DNA from: Patescibacteria group bacterium
GTDB lineage: Bacteria > Patescibacteriota > JACPGU01
Assembly: GCA_022703645.1 (NCBI GenBank)
Contig: JAKLDG010000001.1
Span: 797,254-861,253, forward strand
Direction of reading: 5' to 3'
Length of the DNA stretch: 64,000 bases
The notes beneath the pieces are model-generated. The model did not search any database. It was not told the origin of the DNA and saw only the letters and a program-made list of their open reading frames with translations. Below, piece after piece: positions 31,917-57,120 of the stretch. A program made the position numbers and the translations under genes. Position 1 is the stretch's first letter; each line of letters starts with the position of its first letter.

Positions 31917-32218
31917 TATTCCTTAGCTTTGCTCTTGAAACGAATCCTTGTTATTGACTTATTTTGAAGTAATTTATTTATTGCGTCTAAAATATCTTTC
32001 TCTCTTAAATTAACCTCCTGTGAATAAACACTACCTGTTGTACTTAAATACAAACAATCATCGCGAGAGGATATTATTTTAACCTGTTTTAAAAAATCTT
32101 TATCAAATAACCCCTCTAAAGCCTTTTCTGCTTCATGACAAACAAGAGCCGCTTGGGCGGCTCTGTTTAAGTTTTTTCCAACCAAAACACTTTTTGTGAG
32201 TTTTCCGATTCTATCCAT
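31913..32218 (-). CDS. Small DUF721/DciA-like protein downstream of dnaN (tentative)
   Basis: 101 aa. Its position immediately after dnaN and its weak resemblance (...AALVCHEAEKALEG...LYLSTTGSVYSQEVNL...) match the DUF721/DciA family that occupies this locus in many bacteria. It overlaps the giant gene stop by 4 nt (convergent). Confidence 0.35.
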   Translation of the reverse strand: MDRIGKLTKSVLVGKNLNRAAQAALVCHEAEKALEGLFDKDFLKQVKIISSRDDCLYLSTTGSVYSQEVNLREKDILDAINKLLQNKSITRIRFKSKAKEY

Positions 32219-32245
32219 TGTTTTTTTGATTTTTTGCTTTGTTGT

Positions 32246-33370
32246 TTAATTCCTCAACGGCATTATTATATAAAGATAATCATTCTTCCCCTCACCTTTT
32301 ATTAACCCCGCGCTATTTGCACCACTGAATTTAATTTCGACATTTTTTTCAGGTATTGCAGATAATACGTCAAGAATATATTTAGCATTAAAAGACACCT
32401 CGATTTCTTTTCCCTTACTTTTTACTGGTATTTTGCTAACACTTTCACCAACCTGAACCCCTTGACCGATGATAGAAAGAATTCCTTTCTCGTCTTTTTC
32501 TTTGCCTTTTTCAAAAGAGACATTGACTTTTATACTATTCGCTGATTCTCTTGCAAAAAGACTTGCTACTTTACAAACATTGAACAATTCCTGTTTATCA
32601 ACAATTACTTCATTCTCAAATTCAGCTGGTATAATCTGTTCATAATTTGGATATTGGCCATCAATAAGTCTTGAGACAAGATGAATTGATCCAAAATTGA
32701 AAAGTATTTGATTTTCATCATAAGAAATATCTACTTTTTCTCCTGCATCTTTTAATATCTTACCTACTTCGTTAATCGTTCTTGTTGGGACAATAAAACT
32801 CTTATTCGTCTTCTCATTTTTTGTAATTTTAACCTTCTCTTCCGCTAATCTATAACTATCTGTCGCGACAATTTTTAAAATATCTTTCTCAATTTTAAAA
32901 AATATTCCAGAAAGTATTGGTCGGGTATTATCAGCTGCGGCCGCAAAGGCTACTTGATTAATCGCGTTCATTAAATCTCGTGATGTTACTGTAAAAGTAT
33001 ATTCTTCACTGATATCTGGGATTGATGGAAAATCTTCCGCATTAACACCTTTTATTGTCGCATTATATTTTTCACCTTCAATTAAAACATTATTATTATC
33101 GACACTAATATTAATTTTATCTTCTTTGATATTAGAAATAAATTCAGTTATTAATCTAGATGGTATTGCAATTGAACCGTCTTTTTCTATTTTTGCACCA
33201 ATCCAATAATTAATACCTAATTCAAGGTCTGTAGCAGAAATTTTTAATCTTCCTTGATCAGTTGAAACTAAAATATTATCTAAAATAGGCAATGAGCTTC
33301 TAACTGAAATTATTCTGGAACTGTGAATTAATGCTTTATTTAAATTTTCTTGTACGCAAGTTACTTTCAT
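32246..33370 (-). CDS. dnaN: DNA polymerase III beta sliding clamp
   Basis: 374 aa, MKVTCVQENLNKAL...PILDNILV...LKISATDLE; three-domain clamp length. Confidence 0.9.
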   Translation of the reverse strand: MKVTCVQENLNKALIHSSRIISVRSSLPILDNILVSTDQGRLKISATDLELGINYWIGAKIEKDGSIAIPSRLITEFISNIKEDKINISVDNNNVLIEGEKYNATIKGVNAEDFPSIPDISEEYTFTVTSRDLMNAINQVAFAAAADNTRPILSGIFFKIEKDILKIVATDSYRLAEEKVKITKNEKTNKSFIVPTRTINEVGKILKDAGEKVDISYDENQILFNFGSIHLVSRLIDGQYPNYEQIIPAEFENEVIVDKQELFNVCKVASLFARESANSIKVNVSFEKGKEKDEKGILSIIGQGVQVGESVSKIPVKSKGKEIEVSFNAKYILDVLSAIPEKNVEIKFSGANSAGLIKGEGKNDYLYIIMPLRN

Positions 33371-33688
33371 AAATTCCTCTTTTTGTTATTAAGACCTTTA
33401 ATTATTATTAATTATATTAATTAAATTTAATTAGTAATAGTAGTATTAGTGTTTGTGGATATTGTTAGTAAGTTTTAAAAAATTCTATTTAAAGGTCTTT
33501 TTGTTTGGGTGTTTAATTGTTGAGAAATATTTTTTGTTTTGATTTTTATTGGTGAAAAGTAGTGGAAGTATGTTGATAAAAAACTTTAGATTTTTGGCAA
33601 GAGTTTTTTTATCCACCATTTTGATTTTTTATAAACAATCTATCCACATGATTTATGCACTTTTCCACAATGGCTGTTGAAAATATGT
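33371..33688. promoter_or_regulatory. dnaA-dnaN intergenic region with DnaA-box-like 9-mers (oriC candidate part)
   Basis: ttatccacc (~33612), ctatccaca (~33649), ttttccaca (~33672), tgtggata (~33453); AT-rich 318-bp spacer. Confidence 0.6.
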
Positions 33689-35077
33689 TTATCTAAAAAA
33701 TCTTTCTTTTATACTATTAATTTCATGTTTGATTATATCATTAGATGAAAGCTCCTGGCTAATTTTGCTGCAAGCATGCATTATTGTTGTGTGGTCCTTA
33801 CCTCCTAATTCTTTGCCTATTTTAGGAAAAGAAAGATGTAGCTCTTCCCGCAGTAGATATGCAAGAATTTGGCGCGGATAAACTAATTCCTTGTTTCTTT
33901 TTTGTCCCAATATCTCATCAACCGAAATATCATAGAAATCAGCCACTTGTCTTAAAAGATCCTTAGGTGAAACATTCCTTTGCTTATCATTAAAAGAAGA
34001 CCCGCACAATATTCCTTTTACATCATCTAAGGAAAGAGTTTTATTATTTAGTTCCGAATGAGCCAAGATTCTGTTTAGCGCTCCCTCCAGTTCGCGTATA
34101 TTATTTTGGATATTTTTTGCGATATAATTAATGATTTCGTCATCAATGTCTTGTGATTTCTCCGCAGCTTTGTTTTGCAATATAGCAATCCTAGTTTCAA
34201 TATCGGGCGGATTGATATCTGCCAACATCCCCCACTCAAAACGTGAGACAAGACGAGCTTCCAGCGCAGCTATTGCTTTTGGGGGTCTATCGGAGGTCAT
34301 GACAATTTGCTTTGATGTGCTATGGAGGTCATTGAATGTATGGAAGAACTCTTCTTGTGTAGATTCCTTACCGGCTAAGAATTGGATGTCATCAATTAAT
34401 AATACGTCAGCACCGCGATAATTATTTTTGAATTGTTCCGCTTTGCCTTTTTTTATTAGAGAAATAAATTCATTAGTAAATTTTTCCGAAGTGGTGTAAA
34501 TAATCTTTTTTTTCTTATCCTTTCTGTGGATCTCGTTTCCTATTGCCTGCATTAGGTGTGTTTTTCCTAGGCCAACCCCTCCATAAATAAATAATGGGTT
34601 GTATGTCACGCCAGGGTTTTTGGAAACAGCCAGAGCAGCCGCATGGGCAAGGCGGTTTGATTCCCCAACAACAAAACTATCAAAGCAATATTTTGGGTTT
34701 AGCTGTCCAATTTCGGTGGTAATTGGTTTTTCGCCATAATCGATACTATTAGTTTCTTTGTATCCATTATTAATGTTGTCAGCCAACCCTTCTTTCCTTG
34801 GGGCAGTAGTATGTGCCATGCCTTTTGATCCTTGGCTATGCAGTATGTATTCGATTTTCTTTACATCACCAACATGATGGTTGAGAGTAGAGAGAATTTC
34901 TTGGTGAAATTTCTTTTGTAGCCAGTCTTTAGTAAATGCATTGGGTGTTCCAATTACAACTGTGTCATCTTTAATATTAATAATGGCAGTTTCTTTAAAC
35001 CACGTGGTAAAATTGGCCTTTGATAATAAGACCTCAAGTTCACCCAAACAAGTTGACCAGAGTTTTTCGATGTCCAT
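33689..35077 (-). CDS. dnaA: Chromosomal replication initiator DnaA
   Basis: Start set at MDIEKLWSTCL... (rc of 35075-35077). AAA+ Walker A GGVGLGKTHL; C-terminal DNA-binding domain (...HTTIMHACSKI). Confidence 0.9.
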   Translation of the reverse strand: MDIEKLWSTCLGELEVLLSKANFTTWFKETAIINIKDDTVVIGTPNAFTKDWLQKKFHQEILSTLNHHVGDVKKIEYILHSQGSKGMAHTTAPRKEGLADNINNGYKETNSIDYGEKPITTEIGQLNPKYCFDSFVVGESNRLAHAAALAVSKNPGVTYNPLFIYGGVGLGKTHLMQAIGNEIHRKDKKKKIIYTTSEKFTNEFISLIKKGKAEQFKNNYRGADVLLIDDIQFLAGKESTQEEFFHTFNDLHSTSKQIVMTSDRPPKAIAALEARLVSRFEWGMLADINPPDIETRIAILQNKAAEKSQDIDDEIINYIAKNIQNNIRELEGALNRILAHSELNNKTLSLDDVKGILCGSSFNDKQRNVSPKDLLRQVADFYDISVDEILGQKRNKELVYPRQILAYLLREELHLSFPKIGKELGGKDHTTIMHACSKISQELSSNDIIKHEINSIKERFFR

Positions 35078-35254
35078 CCTAAAATTTTTTAACAAAAAAT
35101 CTAAATGATTAATTCCATAGTAACATAAGTTATACACAGATTACAATATACAATTCACAGCTTTTATAAAAAATCCACAGCCTGTTGACAAGACATTCTT
35201 AAAAATTTATACTTAGTAGAGTAAAAAATCATCTAATACTAAATTTCAAAAGAA
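35078..35254. promoter_or_regulatory. Region upstream of dnaA with DnaA-box-like motifs and the divergent rpmH promoter (oriC candidate part)
   Basis: ttatacaca, attcacagc and aatccacag between 35140 and 35190. Confidence 0.5.
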
Positions 35255-49832: not shown

Positions 49833-51188
49833 TTAAAGTGTTATTTCCTCATTTTCCTTTGGGATATATGCATTAACACCCAGCTCTTCTTTTAGCTTTT
49901 TCGCAAATTCACTACTTGCTTCCGGCTCACCATGGGTTACAAAAACAGTTTTTGGCATATTCTTTTTTTCCAGAATATTTTTTATCCAATTTATTAACTT
50001 TGGCTGGTCAGCATGAGATGAGTAAGCGGATATCTCGCGGATTTGAGCCCTCACTTCTACCTCCTTACCCATAATACGCACAACTGGCTCTCCGTCTTTT
50101 ATTCTTCGCCCCAAAGTACCTTTTACCTGATAACCGATAAAAAGAATGATATTATTCGGATCTGGCAGGTATAACTGTTCATGACCAAGAATTCTTCCTC
50201 CCGTACTCATTCCGGATCCGGCGATAATTACTTTTGGTTTTCTTTCTCTCTCAATAGTCTTTGATTGCTGTGCGGTTCTTGTGACTATCAGCCCCGGAAA
50301 ATTGAATATATCATGATCAGTTTTGATGGTTTCTCTTGCGGCATTGTCAAAATACCTTGGGTACTTGGCATATATTTCAGTAGCTTTGGTTGCTAATGGA
50401 CTGTCAATAAAAAAATTTATCTTGCCGATTCTCCCTTGGTTTGCAAGTTCGTTCAGTTCATAAAGTAATTCCTGGGTTTTTTCCAGCGCGAAAGCGGGAA
50501 TGAGCAGTACTCCTTTTTTCTCTTCCACTTCATCAAGAACCTTTTCAAGTTCCCCCATCCTTTTTTCTGATTTTTCATGTACTCTATTGCCATAAGTTGA
50601 CTCAATGATGATATAGTCTGCTTGATCAATTTTTTCCGGGTCTTCAACTATTGGGGCAGGAGGGTTACCAAGGTCACCAGAAAAAATAACGGTTTTTCCT
50701 TCAGCGAAAACTTTTAACATTGAAGATCCGAGGATATGCCCCGCATCCAGAAATTCCAAAAGCATATTACCAACTTTGAACGGTTTGTGATAATCAGTTC
50801 CTTGCCATAAATAAAGCGCTTTGTTCAGGTCATCTTCATCCCAAATCATCCTCTCGGGATCGCGTCTGGACTCATCGCGCATTAGTTTGAAAGTGTCATT
50901 CAAAAATATCATTCCGAGATCTTTTACTGGATCAGTCGAATAAATTGGTCCGTTAAATCCGCTTCTGATTAATTTTGGGATTCTCCCAATGTGGTCAATA
51001 TGCGAGTGTGTAGCGATAACGGCATCAATAGTTTTGGCATCAAAAGCAAAAGGTTCCATGTTTTTTCCTCGGTCAGCCGCGCTACCCTGAAACAAACCGC
51101 AGTCAATAATAATCCTTGTTCCTTCAGATTCGATAAGGTAGCAAGAACCTGTTACTCTGCCGGTAGCTCCCATGAATTTTATTTTCAT
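49833..51188 (-). CDS. MBL-fold beta-CASP ribonuclease (RNase J/CPSF-like)
   Basis: HSHIDHIGRIP metallo-beta-lactamase motif; 451 aa with a beta-CASP-like middle region. Confidence 0.6.
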   Translation of the reverse strand: MKIKFMGATGRVTGSCYLIESEGTRIIIDCGLFQGSAADRGKNMEPFAFDAKTIDAVIATHSHIDHIGRIPKLIRSGFNGPIYSTDPVKDLGMIFLNDTFKLMRDESRRDPERMIWDEDDLNKALYLWQGTDYHKPFKVGNMLLEFLDAGHILGSSMLKVFAEGKTVIFSGDLGNPPAPIVEDPEKIDQADYIIIESTYGNRVHEKSEKRMGELEKVLDEVEEKKGVLLIPAFALEKTQELLYELNELANQGRIGKINFFIDSPLATKATEIYAKYPRYFDNAARETIKTDHDIFNFPGLIVTRTAQQSKTIERERKPKVIIAGSGMSTGGRILGHEQLYLPDPNNIILFIGYQVKGTLGRRIKDGEPVVRIMGKEVEVRAQIREISAYSSHADQPKLINWIKNILEKKNMPKTVFVTHGEPEASSEFAKKLKEELGVNAYIPKENEEITL

Positions 51189-51270
51189 ATTTTTGATGTT
51201 TATTATTCTTTTTATTATACATTATTAGTTTAATAAAAAAACAACGAAATTAGTCGTCGTTTATTTAATT

Positions 51271-51466
51271 AATGGGCTTTAATTGAAAATGCGCGAACCT
51301 TTTTCAAATCTAAAAACTGAATTTCTGAATTGCATTTTGGGCGGAGCAATTCTGGGTGGGGGGCAGAATGCTCCGCCCAAAAACCCCGAATCCGAATTTT
51401 CCGCTCAATTTTCCGCCGCCGCTTCTTGCCGCAATTTAGGAAATTGCGGCTATTTTGAAATTTTGA
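51271..51466 (+). repeat. Inverted repeat A (left copy, ~196 bp) with GC-rich long hairpin plus terminator-like hairpin
   Basis: The reverse complement recurs at 54374..54569: ~150 nt identical apart from 1 mismatch. A 15-bp stem gggcggagcaattctg/cagaatgctccgccc has one bulge. The second hairpin ccgcaatttaggaaattgcgg is followed by a T-rich tail. Confidence 0.85.
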
Positions 51467-51473
51467 TTTTTAC

Positions 51474-52001
51474 CTATGTATTTTTTAAGACTTTCCCAAA
51501 AATATATGTATGTGTTACGGGTGGCTTTAAAAGTGTCCCCACAAATGGTTTTTTATTTAATTCTTTTATATTTAAAATTTTATAGTTATTAGCTTTATAA
51601 AATTTAATTGCCCAATCAGCCTTTTTCTGAGCTTCTAGCGCGATTGCATCTATTCCTAATCGTTTTGCTCTTTTTTCTATTTCAGAAAGTAACCCGCTTC
51701 CAACTCCTATTTTTTGATATTTTGGCAACACTTGAATCATACTTATCCAAAGAATACCATTCTCTTTAAGATAATATCTCATGGTGCCAACTATTTTATT
51801 ATTAATCGTAGCTATTAGAAATTTTCTCGTTTTTGCTGATTCTGCAAGATCTTTTTCTGATGCCTTTCCAACACAAAGCATCGTACATTCACTGGGTGTA
51901 AAAACGGACATGTATTGTTTGGCTTCTGAATTTTCTACTCTCGCAAATTCTTTATATTCAGATCCTTTTGGTTTTCTAAATTTTATTTTAATCATTTTCA
52001 T
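51474..52001 (-). CDS. GNAT-family N-acetyltransferase
   Basis: Start at MKMIKIKF (rc of 51999-52001). Acetyl-CoA motif ...LPKYQKIGVGSGLLSEIEKRAKRLGIDAIALEA. The upstream palindrome atttagccggctaaa (52091-52105) shares the half-site TTTAGCC with the PD40-gene operators. Confidence 0.7.
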   Translation of the reverse strand: MKMIKIKFRKPKGSEYKEFARVENSEAKQYMSVFTPSECTMLCVGKASEKDLAESAKTRKFLIATINNKIVGTMRYYLKENGILWISMIQVLPKYQKIGVGSGLLSEIEKRAKRLGIDAIALEAQKKADWAIKFYKANNYKILNIKELNKKPFVGTLLKPPVTHTYIFGKVLKNT

Positions 52002-52146
52002 TTTTATCCATTTTAAATATATCAGAACGACAGGAAAAAGTAAATAATTTAGGAAAATAAAAGTGATTTTTCTCTGTGGAAAAGTCATTTATTTAGCCGG
52101 CTAAACCCTAATATTGCACTCAAAATTTTGGCTTAATAAACGAATA

Positions 52147-52175
52147 TTGACTTTGCCGGCAAACTGTGCTATTAT
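52147..52175 (+). promoter_or_regulatory. Consensus sigma70 promoter TTGACT-17-TATTAT
   Basis: -35 at 52147-52152 and -10 at 52170-52175 with an exact 17-bp spacer. Confidence 0.6.
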
Positions 52176-52181
52176 GTATTT

Positions 52182-52262
52182 AGCATTCGTGAGGGCTTTG
52201 GCTCTCTCGCGGTCAAATGTTAAACTGCAGACGAGTGCTACCAGATTCTTTCTGGTTTTTTT
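52182..52262 (+). ncRNA. Candidate small RNA (~80 nt) defined by the consensus promoter and an intrinsic terminator; no protein-coding capacity
   Basis: Downstream of the TTGACT/TATTAT promoter. 7-bp closing stem gcattcg...cgagtgc (one G-U pair); terminator accagattctttctggt + TTTTTTT at 52240-52262. The 3' end abuts the stop of the convergent 52261..52755 gene. Confidence 0.4.
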
Positions 52263-52755
52263 ATTCTTCAAAATCAGTAGAGCTTAGTTTTCTTTTCTTG
52301 TTTCCGTTGGCATCAACAAACTCTATCCATGACGGGTACATGCTATAAAAGAATTTAACTCCGCCTTCAATTTCTTTTACAACCACTTTGATTCTCACTT
52401 CTTTTATAATAGCTACAAAAACATAATACCGAACCAACTTTGCTCTTTTCTCCCAGCGAGAATTTACTTTCTGACGAACTAACATATTTCTCTCGTCGTA
52501 TTCTTGTAGGGTGTGTGACTTCGTAATAATTTCAGGAACTAAATGTAATAGTCTCAATCGATTGTATTGTTCCACTTCGGATCTACCACGATTCCAAGAT
52601 TTGAAAAGCAGGTGTTCAAAACCTTCATTATTAAAATGCACAAAATCATCTAAATAAGGGCATTTAATTTTGCCAATGTTTTTGTACATTTCTTCGGCAT
52701 TTTCTCGTACCGTTTTGAACTTTTTCTCATCAAATTTTGGATTTTTGTTTTCCAT
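52261..52755 (-). CDS. Hypothetical protein (~164 aa) in IR-flanked cargo
   Basis: Start assumed at MENKNPKF (rc of 52753-52755); no motif recognised. Confidence 0.4.
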   Translation of the reverse strand: MENKNPKFDEKKFKTVRENAEEMYKNIGKIKCPYLDDFVHFNNEGFEHLLFKSWNRGRSEVEQYNRLRLLHLVPEIITKSHTLQEYDERNMLVRQKVNSRWEKRAKLVRYYVFVAIIKEVRIKVVVKEIEGGVKFFYSMYPSWIEFVDANGNKKRKLSSTDFEE

Positions 52756-52848
52756 GATTTTATTATAACATAAAAGTTGGCATGAGAATATCATTGTATT
52801 TTGCTCTGTTTTTGCATAATATGTAACTAATAAATAAACCAAAATTTT

Positions 52849-53895
52849 ATGACAGAAAAATTTGATCCAAGTAAACCAGAGTATAAGAAAGTCGAGGATT
52901 TACCAGAAGATCAACAACCACGATTTGAAAATGTTGAGGGCGGTGGTTTTGTAAATAAAGCCGCTCTTGAATTGTCCAAGGAAGATGCTCAAGAAAAAGC
53001 AACGAAAATTAATGAATGGGTAAACAGTAAAAGGAAAGGTAAATACAGTGAGCTTGATAATCCTGAATCTTCCATGGTATTTGAAAACAAGATAGAGACT
53101 TATGATATTCTTAAGCAAAGATTAGAAAAATTCGATGACATTACTGAAAGAGTTGAAAATTTAATATTGGAGGGGGGTGATTTTGATGTTTTGAGACCCG
53201 GATTTTGGAAGGATATGGTAAGAGCAGAAATGGAATTAGATCCGGCGAGAGGAGGTCTTTCTTGGAAAATAGCCATAGACATAGGCATAAGAGACTCTCA
53301 TATGTTTTTCTCTAGGATTATAGCACTTGATATATTCCATTCTTTGAAAAAAAAGGGATTACTTGACGATAATGATAAGAAACTGTTTTTAAAATCTATG
53401 CCAGTATTTGAGTTAGATAGCATATATACTAGGGGTCGTTCATTGTCACCCACAGCCCTTCTTGGCTACGAAAATGAGCTACTAGATTCTTTAGAAAAAT
53501 TATCACAGCGCGAGAATAGGGATGAAATAAATAAGGAGATTAATGAACGATCGCGCATTCATAGATCGATCTTTGACCTTCATAGATCATGTAATCGCCA
53601 TTTCTTTGAAGACTCTGGGTTCAGTGATATGGATGAATTTATTAAGGATGGAATGGGCGAAAAACAATTCAGGACCTATAATTCATTTAGATCGGGCATA
53701 GACAAGTCGCTTATAGAATATGAGGAACAAAATGAGTTTAAATATAGATCTGGACTCGCGGGCTGGGACGATTCTTATCCAAGAAACGCATTTACTCGTG
53801 GTATGGGCGATATAGATGTTTTTATTGATTTGGCAAAAGATGCTAAAAATAAAACTGAAAATGAAATAGAGCAAGATAAGAAAAAATCAAATTAG
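52849..53895 (+). CDS. Hypothetical protein (348 aa) in IR-flanked cargo
   Basis: Divergent from the 52261..52755 gene; acidic and charged; no motif recognised; hairpin terminator at ~53912-53935. Confidence 0.45.
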   Translation: MTEKFDPSKPEYKKVEDLPEDQQPRFENVEGGGFVNKAALELSKEDAQEKATKINEWVNSKRKGKYSELDNPESSMVFENKIETYDILKQRLEKFDDITERVENLILEGGDFDVLRPGFWKDMVRAEMELDPARGGLSWKIAIDIGIRDSHMFFSRIIALDIFHSLKKKGLLDDNDKKLFLKSMPVFELDSIYTRGRSLSPTALLGYENELLDSLEKLSQRENRDEINKEINERSRIHRSIFDLHRSCNRHFFEDSGFSDMDEFIKDGMGEKQFRTYNSFRSGIDKSLIEYEEQNEFKYRSGLAGWDDSYPRNAFTRGMGDIDVFIDLAKDAKNKTENEIEQDKKKSN

Positions 53896-54048
53896 CCAAT
53901 TGATAATTATAAAAGAGCGTCCAGCAGGGCGCTCTTTTCTTTCCCCTTAAATAGTCCTTCATCTCGCAGCTCCGCTGCGCCCCTCTAAATATAAAAACCT
54001 TGAATTTATATTCCTTAATAAAATTATATTTTTCTTATTATCATTTTT

Positions 54049-54255
54049 CTATTTTAATAGTTGGTCTACTTTTGTTCCGATAGCTTCAGCTAATTTCTCA
54101 ATGGTAGAAAGAGTGAGATTTCTCTTGCCATTTTCAATTCCACTAATAAAAGAACGATGAACTTTTAGTTTTCTCGCAATCGTTCCTTGTGATAATTTCT
54201 TTTTTGTTCTTATTTTTTTTAGATTTTTTCCTAATTGTGATGCTATTTTTGACAT
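54049..54255 (-). CDS. XRE-family helix-turn-helix transcriptional regulator (68 aa)
   Basis: LKKIRTKKKLSQGTIARKLKVHRSFISGIENGKRNLTLSTIEKLAEAIG is a canonical Cro/C1 HTH. Its promoter region has direct repeats ATAATGCAACA x2 (54270-54305, minus-strand reading). Confidence 0.85.
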   Translation of the reverse strand: MSKIASQLGKNLKKIRTKKKLSQGTIARKLKVHRSFISGIENGKRNLTLSTIEKLAEAIGTKVDQLLK

Positions 54256-54373
54256 ATAATTATTATCATTATAAATGTTGTTGCATTATTAGACAATGTT
54301 GCATTATAATGATACATGGATATTTGGGAGTCCTCATCATGCGCGCACGGGAGGGTGGGGCAAGCATGAAAAA

Positions 54374-54569
54374 ATCAAATTTCAAAATAGCGAGCCAATG
54401 GGATTGGCTCGCAAGAAGTGGCGGCGGAAAATTGAGCGGAAAATTCGGATTCGGGGTTTTTGGGCGGAGCATTCTGCCCCCCACCCAGAATTGCTCCGCC
54501 CAAAATGCAATTCAGAAATTCAGTTTTTAGATTTGAAAAAGGTTCGCGCATTTTCAATTAAAGCCCATT
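54374..54569 (-). repeat. Inverted repeat A' (right copy), reverse complement of 51271..51466
   Basis: ~150 nt identical to A. The terminal hairpin has a different sequence but keeps the fold (cgagccaatcccattggctcg versus ccgcaatttaggaaattgcgg). This is compensatory change conserving structure. Confidence 0.85.
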
Positions 54570-54714
54570 GAATTGGAGAGAGCGAAAAATTTGCGGGAAT
54601 TTTGACTCCTCGCTCGCCCCGAAGGCGGGCGGGGCGAGCGAGAATTGAAGCTGTAAAATCATAAGGTTCCAAGAAATTCCAAATGATGTTTTTATTTGAA
54701 ATCAGGCGGTTCGT
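54567..54714 (+). repeat. Inverted repeat B (left copy, 148 bp) abutting A', with GC-rich palindrome ctcgctcgcccc...ggggcgagcgag
   Basis: The reverse complement recurs at 56182..56328 with apparently perfect identity. It contains TGTAAAAT, an extended -10-like element oriented toward the recombinase gene. Confidence 0.85.
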
Positions 54715-54782: not shown

Positions 54783-56330
54783 ATGACCATGGACAAACAA
54801 AAACAACTACCACCCGATCAATGGTATCTCTACATTAGAAAAAGCACCGATGAAGAAGATCGTCAGGTTCTTTCTCTTGAAGCTCAAATGACCGAATTAA
54901 AAGAATTTGCCCAAAGGGAAAATGTAGAGATAACTGAAACATTTGTAGAAAAAAGAACCGCAAAAATACCCGGTCGCCCTGTTTTCAATGAAATGCTCTC
55001 TAAGCTGGAGAATAGCAATGGAAGAATTGGAATTTTAAGCTGGGCTCCCGACAGATTATCAAGAAATTCTGTCGATGGCGGAAAAATAATCTATCTTTTG
55101 GATATGGGTAGAATTGCCAGCTTAAAATTCCCTACCTTTGCTTTTGAAAATAATCCTTCGGGCAAATTCTTTTTGTCCATTTCTCTGTCTAACGCAAAAT
55201 ACTATGTAGATAATCTCGCGGAAAATGTAAGACGAGGCAATAGAGCAAAACTGCGTCGAGGCGAATGGCCAGGGCAAAAACCTTTTGGCTATATTTATGA
55301 CCACCGACTTAGAAACATTGTTCCCGACAAAAAGAAAGCGGAAAAAATCAAAATTATTTTTGAAGAATTTGCCACAGGCAAATACACTTACGAAACTATC
55401 TCTGATCGCATGATAGAATTTGGGATTAAAAGCAAGAGCGGGAAAAGAAAATCCAATCATGCGACAAACTATCTTTTAACTAATGCTCTCTACTGCGGAA
55501 TAATGAATTGGGATGGCGAGGCATACGAGGGAAAATACCAGCCGCTCATCTCAAAGCAATTGTTTTCAAAGGTTCAGGAAGTTCTACAAAACAAGAGCAG
55601 ACCAAGGCGAGGAGTCAGGGGCAACCACAATTTTCCTTTCTGCGGGCTTTTCAGGTGCTCTTGTGGCTCAATGTATACCGCTCAATGGGCTCGTGGCCAT
55701 GGCGGGCTTTACAGATACTACCGATGCACCAGAAAGCACGGAAAATGCTCCGAGCCGTATATCCAAGAAAAAGATCTGCAAAATAGAATCATAGAAAAGA
55801 TTAAAACAATTGCTTTGCCTGACGATTGGGCCGAGCCGATGTTAAATTACTTAGAACAAGAAAAAAAGAAAGAAGCCCAATCATCAAACGCTTTTGTCCA
55901 AGAGATCAACAAAAAACTTATTTCTACTCAAGATAAAATGGACAAACTTTTAGAACTTTATCTTGATAACATGCTTGACGAGGAAACTTACAAAATAAAA
56001 AAAGAAAGTCTCGTCAATCAAAAAATCGCCCTTAAGGACGAAAAACAAATTCTTGGGCAAAAGCGGATGAGCGGCTGGATCGAACCTACGATAGATTATA
56101 TTAAAACACTTGAGAAAGCCAAAAATATCAGCCCAGCGGTATCTCTCCCCGAGATTTCGCAATTTGTGGAAAAAATTGGAACGAACCGCCTGATTTCAAA
56201 TAAAAACATCATTTGGAATTTCTTGGAACCTTATGATTTTACAGCTTCAATTCTCGCTCGCCCCGCCCGCCTTCGGGGCGAGCGAGGAGTCAAAATTCCC
56301 GCAAATTTTTCGCTCTCTCCAATTCAATAA
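54783..56330 (+). CDS. Large serine recombinase (resolvase/invertase N-terminal catalytic domain, recombinase domain, zinc ribbon, coiled coil)
   Basis: N-terminus YLYIRKSTDEEDRQVLSLEAQ...RLSRNSVDGGKIIYLL (catalytic Ser region), Cys-rich CGLFRCSCG...YRCTRK, then coiled coil. The last 49 codons lie inside inverted repeat B'. Confidence 0.8.
   Translation: MTMDKQKQLPPDQWYLYIRKSTDEEDRQVLSLEAQMTELKEFAQRENVEITETFVEKRTAKIPGRPVFNEMLSKLENSNGRIGILSWAPDRLSRNSVDGGKIIYLLDMGRIASLKFPTFAFENNPSGKFFLSISLSNAKYYVDNLAENVRRGNRAKLRRGEWPGQKPFGYIYDHRLRNIVPDKKKAEKIKIIFEEFATGKYTYETISDRMIEFGIKSKSGKRKSNHATNYLLTNALYCGIMNWDGEAYEGKYQPLISKQLFSKVQEVLQNKSRPRRGVRGNHNFPFCGLFRCSCGSMYTAQWARGHGGLYRYYRCTRKHGKCSEPYIQEKDLQNRIIEKIKTIALPDDWAEPMLNYLEQEKKKEAQSSNAFVQEINKKLISTQDKMDKLLELYLDNMLDEETYKIKKESLVNQKIALKDEKQILGQKRMSGWIEPTIDYIKTLEKAKNISPAVSLPEISQFVEKIGTNRLISNKNIIWNFLEPYDFTASILARPARLRGERGVKIPANFSLSPIQ
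56182..56328 (-). repeat. Inverted repeat B' (right copy), reverse complement of 54567..54714; overlaps the 3' end of the large serine recombinase ORF
   Basis: A 147-bp apparently perfect match to rc(B); it encodes the recombinase C-terminal NRLISNKNIIWNFLEPYDFTASILARPARLRGERGVKIPANFSLSPIQ. Confidence 0.85.
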
Positions 56331-56550: not shown

Positions 56551-57120
56551 ATGAAAAAAGTAGCAATTTATGTTCGTTGCAGTACCGACAAGGGACAGGA
56601 TTTAGACACTCAAATACTGCCACTGAAAGAGTATGTCGCCAATCGTGGTTGGGAAGTCTACAAAATATATCAAGACTATGCTGAAAGCGGTTCAAAACAG
56701 GACAGAAAAGCCTTAAAAGAGCTAATGGATGATGCAAGACGACGCAAATTCCATGTTTGTGCCGTGGCACGCTGGGATAGATTTTCAAGGTCAACTCGGC
56801 AATTACTAGAATCATTGGAAACATTTAGAGCGGTTGGCGTAGATTTTGTCAGTCTGCATAATGCAACCGATACAACTACTCCCGAAGGAAAAATGTTTTT
56901 TACAATAATAGCTGGGTTTGCCGAATATGAAAGAGAACTGATAAGGAGTAGGGTTCTTGATGGTTTGAATAAGGCCAGAGCAAAAGGTAAAACTCTCGGC
57001 CGTCCAAAAGTTCCTATAGATATTCAAAAATTATTTCAACTAAAATCAGAAGGATTATCAATCCGAAAAATAGCAGAGGAATTGAAGGTTCCGAAATCAA
57101 CGGTGCAGAATTATATATGA
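56551..57120 (+). CDS. Small serine recombinase (Hin/Gin-like DNA invertase or resolvase) with C-terminal HTH
   Basis: 189 aa. VAIYVRCSTDKGQDLDTQ (catalytic Ser), ...VARWDRFSRS..., C-terminal LSIRKIAEELKVPKSTVQNYI HTH. Confidence 0.85.
   Translation: MKKVAIYVRCSTDKGQDLDTQILPLKEYVANRGWEVYKIYQDYAESGSKQDRKALKELMDDARRRKFHVCAVARWDRFSRSTRQLLESLETFRAVGVDFVSLHNATDTTTPEGKMFFTIIAGFAEYERELIRSRVLDGLNKARAKGKTLGRPKVPIDIQKLFQLKSEGLSIRKIAEELKVPKSTVQNYI

What the first reader, a model, noticed from the sequence alone, without database searches (positions are those of the whole stretch)
52088..52262. Promoter-and-terminator-defined candidate small RNA inside the invertible cargo
A perfect-spacing TTGACT-17-TATTAT promoter (52147-52175) is followed ~65 nt later by a canonical intrinsic terminator (accagattctttctggt + TTTTTTT). 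The intervening sequence has no ORF and can close with a 7-bp stem (gcattcg/cgagtgc). In a genome whose ordinary genes mostly lack textbook -35/-10 pairs, a consensus promoter driving an ~80-nt terminated transcript is a strong sRNA or RNA-antitoxin signature. It lies between a GNAT acetyltransferase and an unknown gene, inside a segment flanked by perfect inverted repeats. GNAT toxins with RNA or XRE partners are an established theme; the link here is speculative.
Basis: partly seen in the sequence, partly recalled or inferred. Interest (0 to 1): 0.6.

Follow-up and report, generated by a model that had tools for sequence, protein, structure and literature searches.

The report
New small RNA paired with LPD3-like gene
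The flagged spot is a real, about 80-base structured small RNA gene from a family absent from the RNA family database, which in uncultured "candidate phyla" bacteria almost always sits tail-to-tail with one small protein gene of unknown function, so the two probably work as a pair.

Summary
TTGACT-17-TATTAT (with TG) lies at 52147-52175 and a hairpin plus T7 terminator at 52240-52263. Alone these are at chance frequency, but the RNA between them is real. It folds into a three-way junction (P1 9 bp, P2 6 bp, P3 5 bp), and only on the + strand. The same RNA, with its own promoter and terminator, occurs in more than 110 distinct metagenome and genome loci. Across 80 distinct sequences 98.8% of cells pair, and 11 of 20 pairs show compensatory changes. 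No Rfam 15 family matches.

The conserved partner is the "unknown gene", a 164-aa LPD3-like protein (52261-52755, minus strand) that converges on the RNA. All 34 protein-anchored loci carry the RNA, including five distant homologues whose RNA has diverged but keeps the architecture. From the RNA side, about 20% of loci have a broken or missing protein gene. No other neighbour is conserved; DNA methyltransferases and toxin-type genes recur. About 40% of loci have a perfect DnaA box at the RNA promoter; the window copy does not.

Best reading: a two-gene RNA-protein module, with the RNA as an antitoxin-like partner. The function is untested.

The parts
52147..52175 (+). Sigma-70-type promoter of the small RNA: TTGACT, 17-nt spacer, TG-extended TATTAT. 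A 12-nt palindrome TTTGCCGGCAAA (52152-52163) lies in the spacer.
   Evidence: 10 of 12 matches, TG. A promoter with at least 9 of 12 matches, whose -10 ends 5-10 nt before P1, is present in 91 of 114 unique homologous loci; 59 of them have TG.
52182..52239 (+). Core of the small RNA, a three-way junction. P1 is 52182-52190 with 52231-52239 (9 bp). P2 is 52191-52196 with 52201-52206 (6 bp, UUUG loop). P3 is 52209-52213 with 52224-52228 (5 bp, 10-nt loop). The junctions are 0, 2 (UC) and 2 (AG) nt.
   Evidence: minimum-free-energy fold, z = -4.6 and -3.8. (covariance model R1 hit at 52179-52242, 76.2 bits, E = 1.6e-23, the only strong hit in the 64-kb window). (covariation).
52240..52263 (+). 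Intrinsic terminator of the small RNA: hairpin ACCAGA-ttctt-TCTGGT followed by T7. The T-run overlaps the stop codon of the convergent gene (52261-52263).
   Evidence: In homologous loci a T-run either follows P1 directly (51 loci) or follows an extra hairpin (61 loci); 2 loci have none.
52261..52755 (-). Convergent partner gene: a 164-aa LPD3-like protein of unknown function (MENKNPKF...). Its stop codon abuts the 3' end of the RNA.
   Evidence: Pfam PF18798 LPD3: E = 8e-6, 26.4 bits, just under the 27-bit cut-off. (176 homologues, mostly Patescibacteria). (AlphaFold2 mean pLDDT 82.5). (top fold matches are phage LPD3 domains, probability 1.00). (association with the RNA).

Best explanation
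Window 52182-52263 (+) is the gene for a small structured non-coding RNA of about 80 nt. It has its own sigma-70-type promoter (52147-52175) and its own intrinsic terminator (52240-52263). The RNA belongs to a family that Rfam 15 does not contain. Its core is a compact three-way junction with a nearly invariant sequence around the junction, P2 and P3, and a freely covarying closing stem P1.

The RNA forms a self-contained, mobile two-gene module with the convergent gene for a 164-aa LPD3-like protein (52261-52755, -). I infer that the RNA is the cognate partner of that protein. Most likely it binds and neutralises or regulates the protein, in the manner of a type III antitoxin RNA. Where no terminator separates the two genes, it could also act through convergent transcription or antisense pairing with the read-through 3' end of the mRNA.

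In many family members the RNA promoter carries a consensus DnaA box, so RNA output is probably tied to DnaA and replication status. The window copy lacks that box and instead has a GCCGGC-centred palindrome in the promoter spacer.

Shown: the RNA gene, its strand, its structure, its conservation and its linkage to the protein gene. Inferred: binding, neutralisation, toxicity of the protein and control by DnaA.
For: (1) Structure. The fold is z = -4.6, and it forms on the + strand only (-24.2 against -14.1 kcal/mol).

(2) Covariation. In 28 sequences, 98.4% of cells pair and 9 of 20 pairs have compensatory changes, with 0 of 500 shuffles reaching this. RNAalifold independently gives the same structure. 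In 80 distinct sequences, 98.8% pair and 11 of 20 pairs are compensatory, against 37-53% pairing for slid controls. About 11% of cells are G-U, concentrated at two pairs, which fixes the strand.

(3) Independent transcription. A positionally conserved promoter occurs in 91 of 114 loci, and a T-run terminator in 112 of 114.

(4) Not a known family. There is no Rfam hit at gathering score, or at E <= 10 locally, or at E <= 1 in four typical members. There is no tRNA or tmRNA.

(5) Linkage to the protein. All 29 protein-anchored GTDB loci carry the RNA just past the stop codon, convergent. Five distant homologues (profile E = 1e-20 to 1e-25) each carry a diverged three-way junction or its 3' part at the same place. 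Of RNA-anchored unique loci with room, 84 have an intact gene, 12 a fragmented or start-less one and 9 none.

(6) Modularity. No other neighbour is conserved. Recurrent neighbours are DNA methyltransferases (18 loci), HsdS, Fic, and PemK and NYN genes.

(7) DnaA box. A perfect TTATCCACA lies within 150 nt upstream in 46 of 110 loci, abutting the -35 or inside the spacer. The background is 0.045 per kb.
Against: - There is no expression data and no biochemical evidence of any kind.
- Toxicity of the LPD3-like protein is not shown. It has no match to any PADLOC defence or toxin model, to the PDB by sequence or fold, or to NCBIfam.
- The architecture does not match any defined toxin-antitoxin type. 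The RNA is a single copy and convergent, not a tandem array upstream as in type III. The protein is not a small hydrophobic peptide as in type I.
- About 9% of RNA copies stand without the protein gene, so the RNA could have an independent function.
- The window copy lacks the DnaA box found in the family.
Confidence: 0.5

Rival explanations
1. The RNA and the LPD3-like protein form a working ribonucleoprotein or enzyme-substrate pair, comparable to Ro60 with Y RNA. The RNA would be a cofactor, scaffold or substrate rather than an inhibitor, and the module would serve defence or RNA metabolism.
For: The linkage and co-divergence evidence is the same as for the main explanation. Near-invariant sequence in the junction, P2 and P3 implies sequence-specific recognition by a macromolecule. 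The protein has many invariant polar and charged residues, as enzymes and nucleic-acid binders do.
Against: Protein genes are often fragmented or lost beside an intact RNA (21 of 105), while the protein was never found without the RNA (34 of 34). That asymmetry fits a toxin with its antidote better than an obligate complex. There is no structural match to a known RNA-binding fold.
Confidence: 0.2
2. The RNA is a purely cis-antisense or transcription-interference regulator, as phage lambda OOP RNA is for cII. Convergent transcription and pairing with the read-through 3' end of the LPD3-like mRNA would lower its expression, with no protein binding.
For: The arrangement is convergent and abutting. 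The T-run overlaps the stop codon in the window. The gap from P1 to the stop codon is 5-20 nt in most loci. In the window the terminator is unidirectional, so the LPD3-like mRNA should read through the RNA gene. OOP is a precedent for a short convergent RNA with DnaA boxes near its promoter (PMC3985674).
Against: Antisense action needs no conserved structure or sequence, yet the junction, P2 and P3 are nearly invariant, and P1 covaries to keep pairing on one strand only. Some loci (for example L033, L020, L023, L025, L028) have an A-run, hairpin and T-run between the two genes. That looks like a bidirectional terminator and would prevent transcript overlap. About 9% of RNA copies have no convergent LPD3-like gene.
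Confidence: 0.15
3. The RNA is an independent, DnaA-controlled trans-acting small RNA, or a protein-sequestering RNA, whose function has nothing to do with the LPD3-like gene. The adjacency would reflect co-mobilisation only.
For: Orphan copies sit beside unrelated genes: an HTH protein, NUDIX, NYN and PemK. The DnaA box belongs to the RNA promoter, and it is also present in orphan copies.
Against: All 34 protein-anchored loci carry the RNA, including distant subfamilies whose RNA sequence has diverged along with the protein. Mere hitch-hiking would not survive that much divergence with fixed position and orientation.
Confidence: 0.1
4. There is no RNA gene. The conserved sequence would be a DNA-level element, such as a replication or recombination site or a bidirectional terminator for the LPD3-like gene.
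For: The DnaA box next to it and the position at a gene end could suggest an origin-like or terminator element.
Against: Pairing is strand-specific and rich in G-U; on the opposite strand these positions would be A-C mismatches. A promoter lies at a fixed distance upstream, and a T-run lies downstream on the same strand, in nearly all loci. Many loci have a separate terminator as well.
Confidence: 0.05

Closest known systems
Type III toxin-antitoxin systems (ToxIN, CptIN, TenpIN)
   Same: Both are two-gene modules of a structured non-coding RNA and a protein of about 160-170 aa. Both are mobile and sit in defence-island-like contexts. Here the protein was never found without the RNA. The proposed mechanism, an RNA that binds and neutralises the protein, is the same.
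   Different: The RNA here is a single three-way junction, not a tandem array of repeats. It is convergent and downstream of the protein gene, not upstream on the same strand. The protein matches no ToxN/AbiQ-type or other PADLOC model. Neither toxicity nor RNase activity is shown.
Type I toxin-antitoxin systems with 3'-overlapping antisense RNA (for example txpA/RatA and bsrG/SR4 of Bacillus subtilis; from my own knowledge)
   Same: A small RNA gene lies convergent to the protein gene and the two meet at their 3' ends. The RNA has a strong promoter.
   Different: The protein here is a 164-aa soluble alpha/beta protein, not a short hydrophobic peptide. The overlap with the coding sequence is at most 3 nt. 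The RNA has a conserved structure and sequence that antisense action alone would not need. Some loci have a bidirectional-looking terminator between the genes.
Phage lambda OOP RNA and its pO promoter
   Same: OOP is a short terminated RNA, 77 nt from my own knowledge, made from a promoter that converges on a protein gene (cII). DnaA-box-like sites bound by DnaA lie next to that promoter. Both antisense action and promoter interference are documented (PMC3985674).
   Different: There is no sequence or structure similarity. From my own knowledge, OOP overlaps about 55 nt of the cII coding sequence, whereas this RNA ends at the stop codon. The lambda DnaA boxes lie downstream of pO, whereas here they abut the -35 or lie in the spacer. 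The window copy has no box.
Ro60 (Rsr) with Y RNA modules in bacteria (from my own knowledge)
   Same: A conserved structured small RNA is encoded next to the gene of the protein it binds, and the pair is spread sporadically by horizontal transfer.
   Different: The protein fold and the RNA are unrelated to Ro60 and Y RNA, the orientation differs, and no binding has been shown here.

Membership tests
Any Rfam 15 RNA family | Score at or above the family's gathering threshold with its covariance model | tested here: not met
   There were 0 hits at gathering score in the whole window. Within 51900-52500 nothing on the + strand overlaps the RNA at E <= 10; the one overlapping row is a minus-strand chance match to a eukaryotic microRNA model (mir-1264, 52228-52285, 14.6 bits against a 79-bit threshold, E = 7.9). 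Four typical family members gave nothing relevant at E <= 1.
tRNA / tmRNA | Cloverleaf or tmRNA structure detectable by ARAGORN | tested here: not met
   ARAGORN found 0 genes in the window.
Independently transcribed bacterial small RNA gene | Own promoter at a fixed distance upstream of the 5' end | tested here: met
   The window promoter matches 10 of 12 positions plus TG, and its -10 ends 6 nt before P1. The same holds in 91 of 114 unique loci. This is sequence evidence only; the transcription start site was not measured.
Independently transcribed bacterial small RNA gene | Own intrinsic terminator on the same strand | tested here: met
   The window has a hairpin plus T7. A T-run follows P1, or an extra hairpin, in 112 of 114 loci.
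Independently transcribed bacterial small RNA gene | Detected transcript | not testable with these tools
   No transcriptome data were available for this organism or its relatives.
Structured RNA family | Conserved secondary structure supported by compensatory changes | tested here: met
   98.8% of cells pair, 11 of 20 pairs have changes on both sides, and 0 of 500 shuffles reach the observed values. Slid controls pair at 37-53%.
Type III toxin-antitoxin system | Antitoxin is a tandem array of RNA repeats upstream of the toxin gene on the same strand | tested here: not met
   There is a single RNA copy and no tandem repeat at the RNA. The RNA is convergent and downstream of the protein gene.
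Type III toxin-antitoxin system | Toxin is a ToxN/AbiQ-type endoribonuclease that processes and binds the RNA | tested here: inconclusive
   There is no PADLOC, Pfam (other than weak LPD3) or NCBIfam match and no PDB fold match. Activity cannot be tested with these tools.
Type I toxin-antitoxin system | Small (usually under 60 aa) hydrophobic toxin peptide | tested here: not met
   The partner is a 164-aa protein with helices and a long beta-sheet.
Type I toxin-antitoxin system | Antisense RNA overlaps the toxin mRNA | tested here: inconclusive
   The overlap with the coding sequence is at most 3 nt. Overlap with a read-through 3' UTR is possible in the window, which has no minus-strand terminator. 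Some loci have bidirectional-looking terminators that would block it.
LPD3 domain (Pfam PF18798), for the partner protein | Score at or above the Pfam gathering threshold (27 bits) | tested here: inconclusive
   The score is 26.4 bits, E = 8e-6, just below the cut-off. Many homologues carry a precomputed PF18798 hit. The best BFVD fold matches are phage LPD3 domains (probability 1.00, TM 0.45-0.51).
DnaA-regulated promoter | Consensus DnaA box TTATCCACA at the promoter | tested here: not met
   For the window copy, the only nearby site is TGTGGAAAA at 52075, which has one mismatch, lies about 113 nt upstream of the core and is within chance expectation. For the family, the feature is met in 46 of 110 loci.

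The most novel reading that the evidence does not exclude
This would be a previously unrecognised class of RNA-protein conflict module. A single, convergently encoded three-way-junction RNA acts as the specific antidote or cofactor of a stand-alone LPD3-domain effector, and its synthesis is gated by the replication initiator DnaA. Changes in DnaA status, for example through phage takeover, replication arrest or loss of the element, would then release the effector. This would give LPD3, a domain of unknown function common in phage and conjugative-element polyvalent proteins, its first functional handle. It would also define a toxin-antitoxin architecture outside types I-VIII.
Probability: 0.2. 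Interest if true: 0.85.

Novelty: new variant of a known kind. Interest (0 to 1): 0.7.

Why it matters
Very few non-coding RNAs are known from Patescibacteria (the candidate phyla radiation), whose small genomes have little room for anything without a function. This family is well defined: more than 110 distinct copies, clear covariation, and its own promoter and terminator. It has an obligate-looking protein partner from a domain family (LPD3) for which no function is known, although that domain is common in the injected polyvalent proteins of phages and conjugative elements.

The pairing gives a directly testable hypothesis for both the RNA and the domain: co-expression, toxicity and rescue, and binding. 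The DnaA-box promoters also suggest an unusual regulatory input, from replication status into an accessory RNA-protein module.

For genome annotation, the covariance model built here would fill a gap in Rfam.

Tried and rejected
- **GNAT as partner: rejected.** The four contigs with an identical GNAT protein (L001-L004) are 100% identical to the window and carry no comparative information. GNAT is absent from all other loci.
- **Known RNA families: rejected**.
- **Other copies in the window: none** by blastn or by the covariance model.
- **Phage or plasmid origin: no evidence.** An exact 22-mer was absent from viral contigs. The degenerate pattern gave one viral contig, with the RNA at its very end (L034). 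Neither the RNA nor the protein matched the INPHARED phage records, and the RNA did not match the PLSDB plasmid records.
- **An alternative P2 register** (GUGAG with CUCGC) was considered and rejected by reading the sequences extracted. In L010 and L017 it would create A-C or G-A mismatches, whereas the accepted register shows A-U to G-C compensation.
- **P3 loop as an anticodon-like CAU, or as complementary to the start region of the LPD3-like mRNA:** rejected by inspection. CAU is not conserved (the window has UGU), and the window start region has no complementarity.
- **The 188-aa neighbour in L100 as a cryptic LPD3 homologue: rejected** (hhalign probability 0.2).
- **Literature searches** for the RNA, for LPD3-associated RNA and for non-coding RNAs of Patescibacteria found nothing describing it. 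One 2026 preprint on co-evolutionary mining of non-coding elements could not be opened.
- **My automated classifier of bidirectional terminators** was too strict: it found no clear hairpin in 35 loci. I therefore use it only qualitatively.

Full report
**1. The observation**

TTGACT (52147-52152), a 17-nt spacer and TATTAT (52170-52175) match 10 of 12 consensus positions, and a TG sits just before the -10. The hairpin ACCAGA-ttctt-TCTGGT (52240-52256) is followed by seven T.

These two matches alone are not significant. In 50000-54500 the scan found 14 promoter-like sites against 15.7 expected, and 4 terminator-like sites against 3.5 expected.

The stretch between them is unusual, however. RNA 52182-52264 folds at -31.8 kcal/mol, with z = -4.6 and 0 of 200 shuffles folding as well. 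The fold is a three-way junction followed by the terminator:
- P1 is AGCAUUCGU/ACGAGUGCU, 9 bp.
- P2 is GAGGGC/GCUCUC with a UUUG loop.
- P3 is GCGGU/ACUGC with a 10-nt loop.

The core folds well only on the + strand: -24.2 kcal/mol (z = -3.8) against -14.1 kcal/mol (z = -0.85) for the complement.

**2. Surroundings**

The organism is an uncultured Patescibacteria bacterium, according to the source name of P0001. The window has 36% G+C.

Two genes flank the RNA on the minus strand. One is a GNAT acetyltransferase (51474-52001). The other is a 164-aa protein (52261-52755) with a weak LPD3 match (PF18798, 26.4 bits against a 27-bit cut-off).

The T-run of the RNA overlaps that gene's stop codon, so the RNA gene and the LPD3-like gene converge tail to tail.

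The rest of the segment holds:
- a 348-aa protein with no family match (52849-53895, +);
- an XRE-type HTH protein (54049-54255, -);
- 159-nt inverted repeats at 51271-51429 and 54411-54569;
- a large serine recombinase (54783-56330), itself flanked by a second inverted-repeat pair.

**3. Comparative evidence for the RNA**

Contigs with an identical GNAT protein were 100% identical to the window and so uninformative.

The LPD3-like protein has many homologues at 54-74% identity (120 listed), mostly from Patescibacteria. I scanned one genome per GTDB species with an alignment of them (A1) and obtained 29 loci.

In 28 of these loci, the roughly 60 nt just past the stop codon on the opposite strand read as GCACUUGUGAGGGCUUUGGCUCUCUCGCGGUCAAUACAUAAACCGCAGACAGGUGC plus U's, or a close variant. 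The covariance model found the RNA in the 29th locus as well (L032). The loci include a Verrucomicrobiales genome (L033) and a 2.2-Mb contig of an unclassified uncultured bacterium (L031).

On a 28-sequence alignment (A2), my three-helix structure pairs 98.4% of cells. Nine of 20 pairs have changes on both sides, and 0 of 500 shuffles reach this. RNAalifold independently predicts the same structure.

The covariance model R1 gives 76 bits for the window copy and no other credible hit in the 64 kb. It finds the RNA in every locus L005-L099.

On the resulting 80 distinct sequences, 98.8% of cells pair and 11 of 20 pairs are compensatory, against 37-53% pairing for slid controls. About 11% of cells are G-U, concentrated at pairs 9-79 and 16-25. 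These would be A-C mismatches on the other strand, which fixes the transcribed strand.

Three further points support independent transcription and rule out coding:
- The P3 loop varies in length by 1-2 nt, which excludes a coding reading.
- A promoter with at least 9 of 12 matches, whose -10 ends 5-10 nt before P1, is present in 91 of 114 unique loci; 59 of them have TG.
- A T-run follows P1 directly in 51 loci and follows an extra hairpin in 61.

No Rfam 15 family matches the window or typical members.

**4. What it is linked to**

No gene other than the LPD3-like one is conserved next to the RNA. GNAT never recurs.

From the protein side the linkage is complete. All 29 GTDB loci carry the RNA. 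A profile search of 1.84 billion cluster representatives shows a larger family, with 1095 clusters at E <= 1e-3 and 412 at E <= 1e-10.

Of the six distant members I looked up (E = 1e-19 to 1e-25), five returned DNA; for the sixth, P0267, none was available. All five have a diverged RNA at the same position and in the same orientation. In four of them the full RNA is present and has the same three-way-junction architecture, with fold z-scores of -3.5 to -7.4. The fifth contig is cut and shows the 3' part.

From the RNA side the linkage is looser. Among unique loci with enough flanking DNA, 84 have an intact gene, 8 a fragmented one, 4 lack a start codon and 9 have none. The orphan copies sit next to HTH, NUDIX, NYN or PemK genes.

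So the protein is never found without the RNA, while the RNA sometimes lacks the protein. That asymmetry, together with the absence of synteny, is what a toxin and its antidote would show. The recurrent neighbours point the same way: DNA methyltransferases in 18 loci, HsdS, a helicase and Fic.

The protein model is confident (mean pLDDT 82.5). Its only fold matches are phage LPD3 domains. No function is known for LPD3 (PMC5512222), and PDB, PADLOC, PHROGs and NCBIfam give nothing.

**5. The DnaA box**

I did not expect this feature. A perfect DnaA box (TTATCCACA, in either orientation) lies within 150 nt upstream of the RNA core in 46 of 110 unique loci, and 20 more have a one-mismatch box. 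The box almost always abuts the -35 or lies in the spacer. The background in the same loci is 0.045 per kb.

It also occurs at orphan RNA copies, so it belongs to the RNA promoter.

The window copy lacks it. The only near-box is TGTGGAAAA at 52075, which is within chance expectation. Instead, the window has a palindrome TTTGCCGGCAAA in the promoter spacer, and another, TTTAGCCGGCTAAA, 59 bp upstream measured centre to centre.

**6. Mechanism**

Shown:
- a structured small RNA gene, conserved and transcribed from one strand, to the extent that sequence alone can show transcription;
- its linkage to, and co-divergence with, the LPD3-like gene.

Inferred: the RNA is the protein's cognate partner. 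I favour direct binding and neutralisation, as in type III systems, for three reasons. The junction, P2 and P3 are nearly invariant in sequence, while P1 covaries freely. Some loci, such as L033, L020, L023, L025 and L028, carry an A-run, hairpin and T-run between the two genes, which would stop both transcripts and prevent antisense overlap. Orphan RNAs persist.

In the window the terminator is unidirectional. The LPD3-like mRNA probably reads through the RNA gene towards GNAT, so antisense pairing and polymerase collision could add to the control. Lambda OOP RNA and its pO promoter work this way (PMC3985674).

My confidence in each step is:
- real structured small RNA gene, about 0.9;
- functional pairing with the LPD3-like protein, about 0.8;
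- antitoxin-like neutralisation, about 0.4.

**7. Comparison with known systems**

The module works like a type III toxin-antitoxin system, or like a 3'-convergent type I system. It fails the defining features of both:
- it has no repeat array and is not upstream on the same strand;
- the protein is not a small hydrophobic peptide;
- the overlap with the coding sequence is at most 3 nt.

It is not a member of any Rfam family. I therefore class it as a new variant of a known kind, namely an RNA-protein two-gene module. The RNA family itself appears to be undescribed. Literature searches found nothing on it.

**8. Verdict**

Its small-RNA interpretation is strongly supported, and its GNAT link is not supported. 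The finding merits follow-up: transcript mapping, a toxicity and rescue test, and a binding assay would settle it.

Noticed in passing
window 32246-35137, with the box cluster in 32000-34000: dnaN (32246-33370, -) and dnaA (33689-35137, -) are in the window. Eight of the 31 DnaA-box-like 9-mers (at most one mismatch) in the window fall in 32000-34000. This is probably the chromosomal origin region, about 18-20 kb from the RNA.
   Followed up: partly
homologous loci L005-L154, 40-70 nt upstream of the RNA core: A consensus DnaA box (TTATCCACA) abuts the -35 or lies in the spacer of the RNA promoter in 46 of 110 unique loci, against a background of 0.045 per kb. In the two loci from outside Patescibacteria (L031, L033) the box lies instead about 130 nt upstream of the LPD3-like start codon.
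   Followed up: partly
window 52092-52105 and 52152-52163: Two GCCGGC-centred palindromes are present: TTTAGCCGGCTAAA, and TTTGCCGGCAAA inside the spacer of the RNA promoter. They lie 59 bp apart centre to centre and could be operators, for example for the nearby XRE protein. They are specific to this window's copy.
   Followed up: partly
window 51271-51429 / 54411-54569 and 54567-54714 / 56181-56328: Two adjacent pairs of long inverted repeats are present (159 nt at 99% and 148 nt at 100%). The second pair flanks the large serine recombinase gene (54783-56330) and includes its 3' end, so inversion would swap the C-terminal coding end. A public contig (L001, 3281 bp) begins and ends within the arms of the first pair (window 51280-54560), as expected if assemblies break at the repeats.
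   Followed up: partly
window 56551-57120 (+): A second, small serine recombinase (189 aa, Resolvase domain plus an HTH, the domain make-up of a resolvase or DNA invertase) lies just beyond the large one. It could be the enzyme that acts on the inverted repeats.
   Followed up: no
window 52761-52790 (minus strand), upstream of the LPD3-like ATG at 52755: A TATAAT hexamer, preceded by TG one base upstream (TGTTATAAT), ends only 6 nt before the ATG of the LPD3-like gene, which suggests a leaderless mRNA. No Shine-Dalgarno sequence is evident there or in many homologous loci.
   Followed up: no
window 54260-54310: Repeated TGTTGCATTAT motifs lie directly upstream of the XRE-family gene (54049-54255, -). 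They look like autoregulatory operators.
   Followed up: no
L090 1886-1952 (+) and 2086-2147 (-): One metagenome locus has a strong RNA copy and a second, weak, convergent match (30.5 bits) 130 nt away, with no LPD3-like gene.
   Followed up: no
loci such as L006, L007, L013, L123 (immediately upstream of the LPD3-like gene): In 18 loci a DNA methyltransferase gene (about 650 aa, two families) lies close to the module, most often directly upstream of the LPD3-like gene on the same strand. HsdS genes occur in 5 more loci. This recalls the fusion of LPD domains with methylases in polyvalent proteins (PMC5512222).
   Followed up: partly
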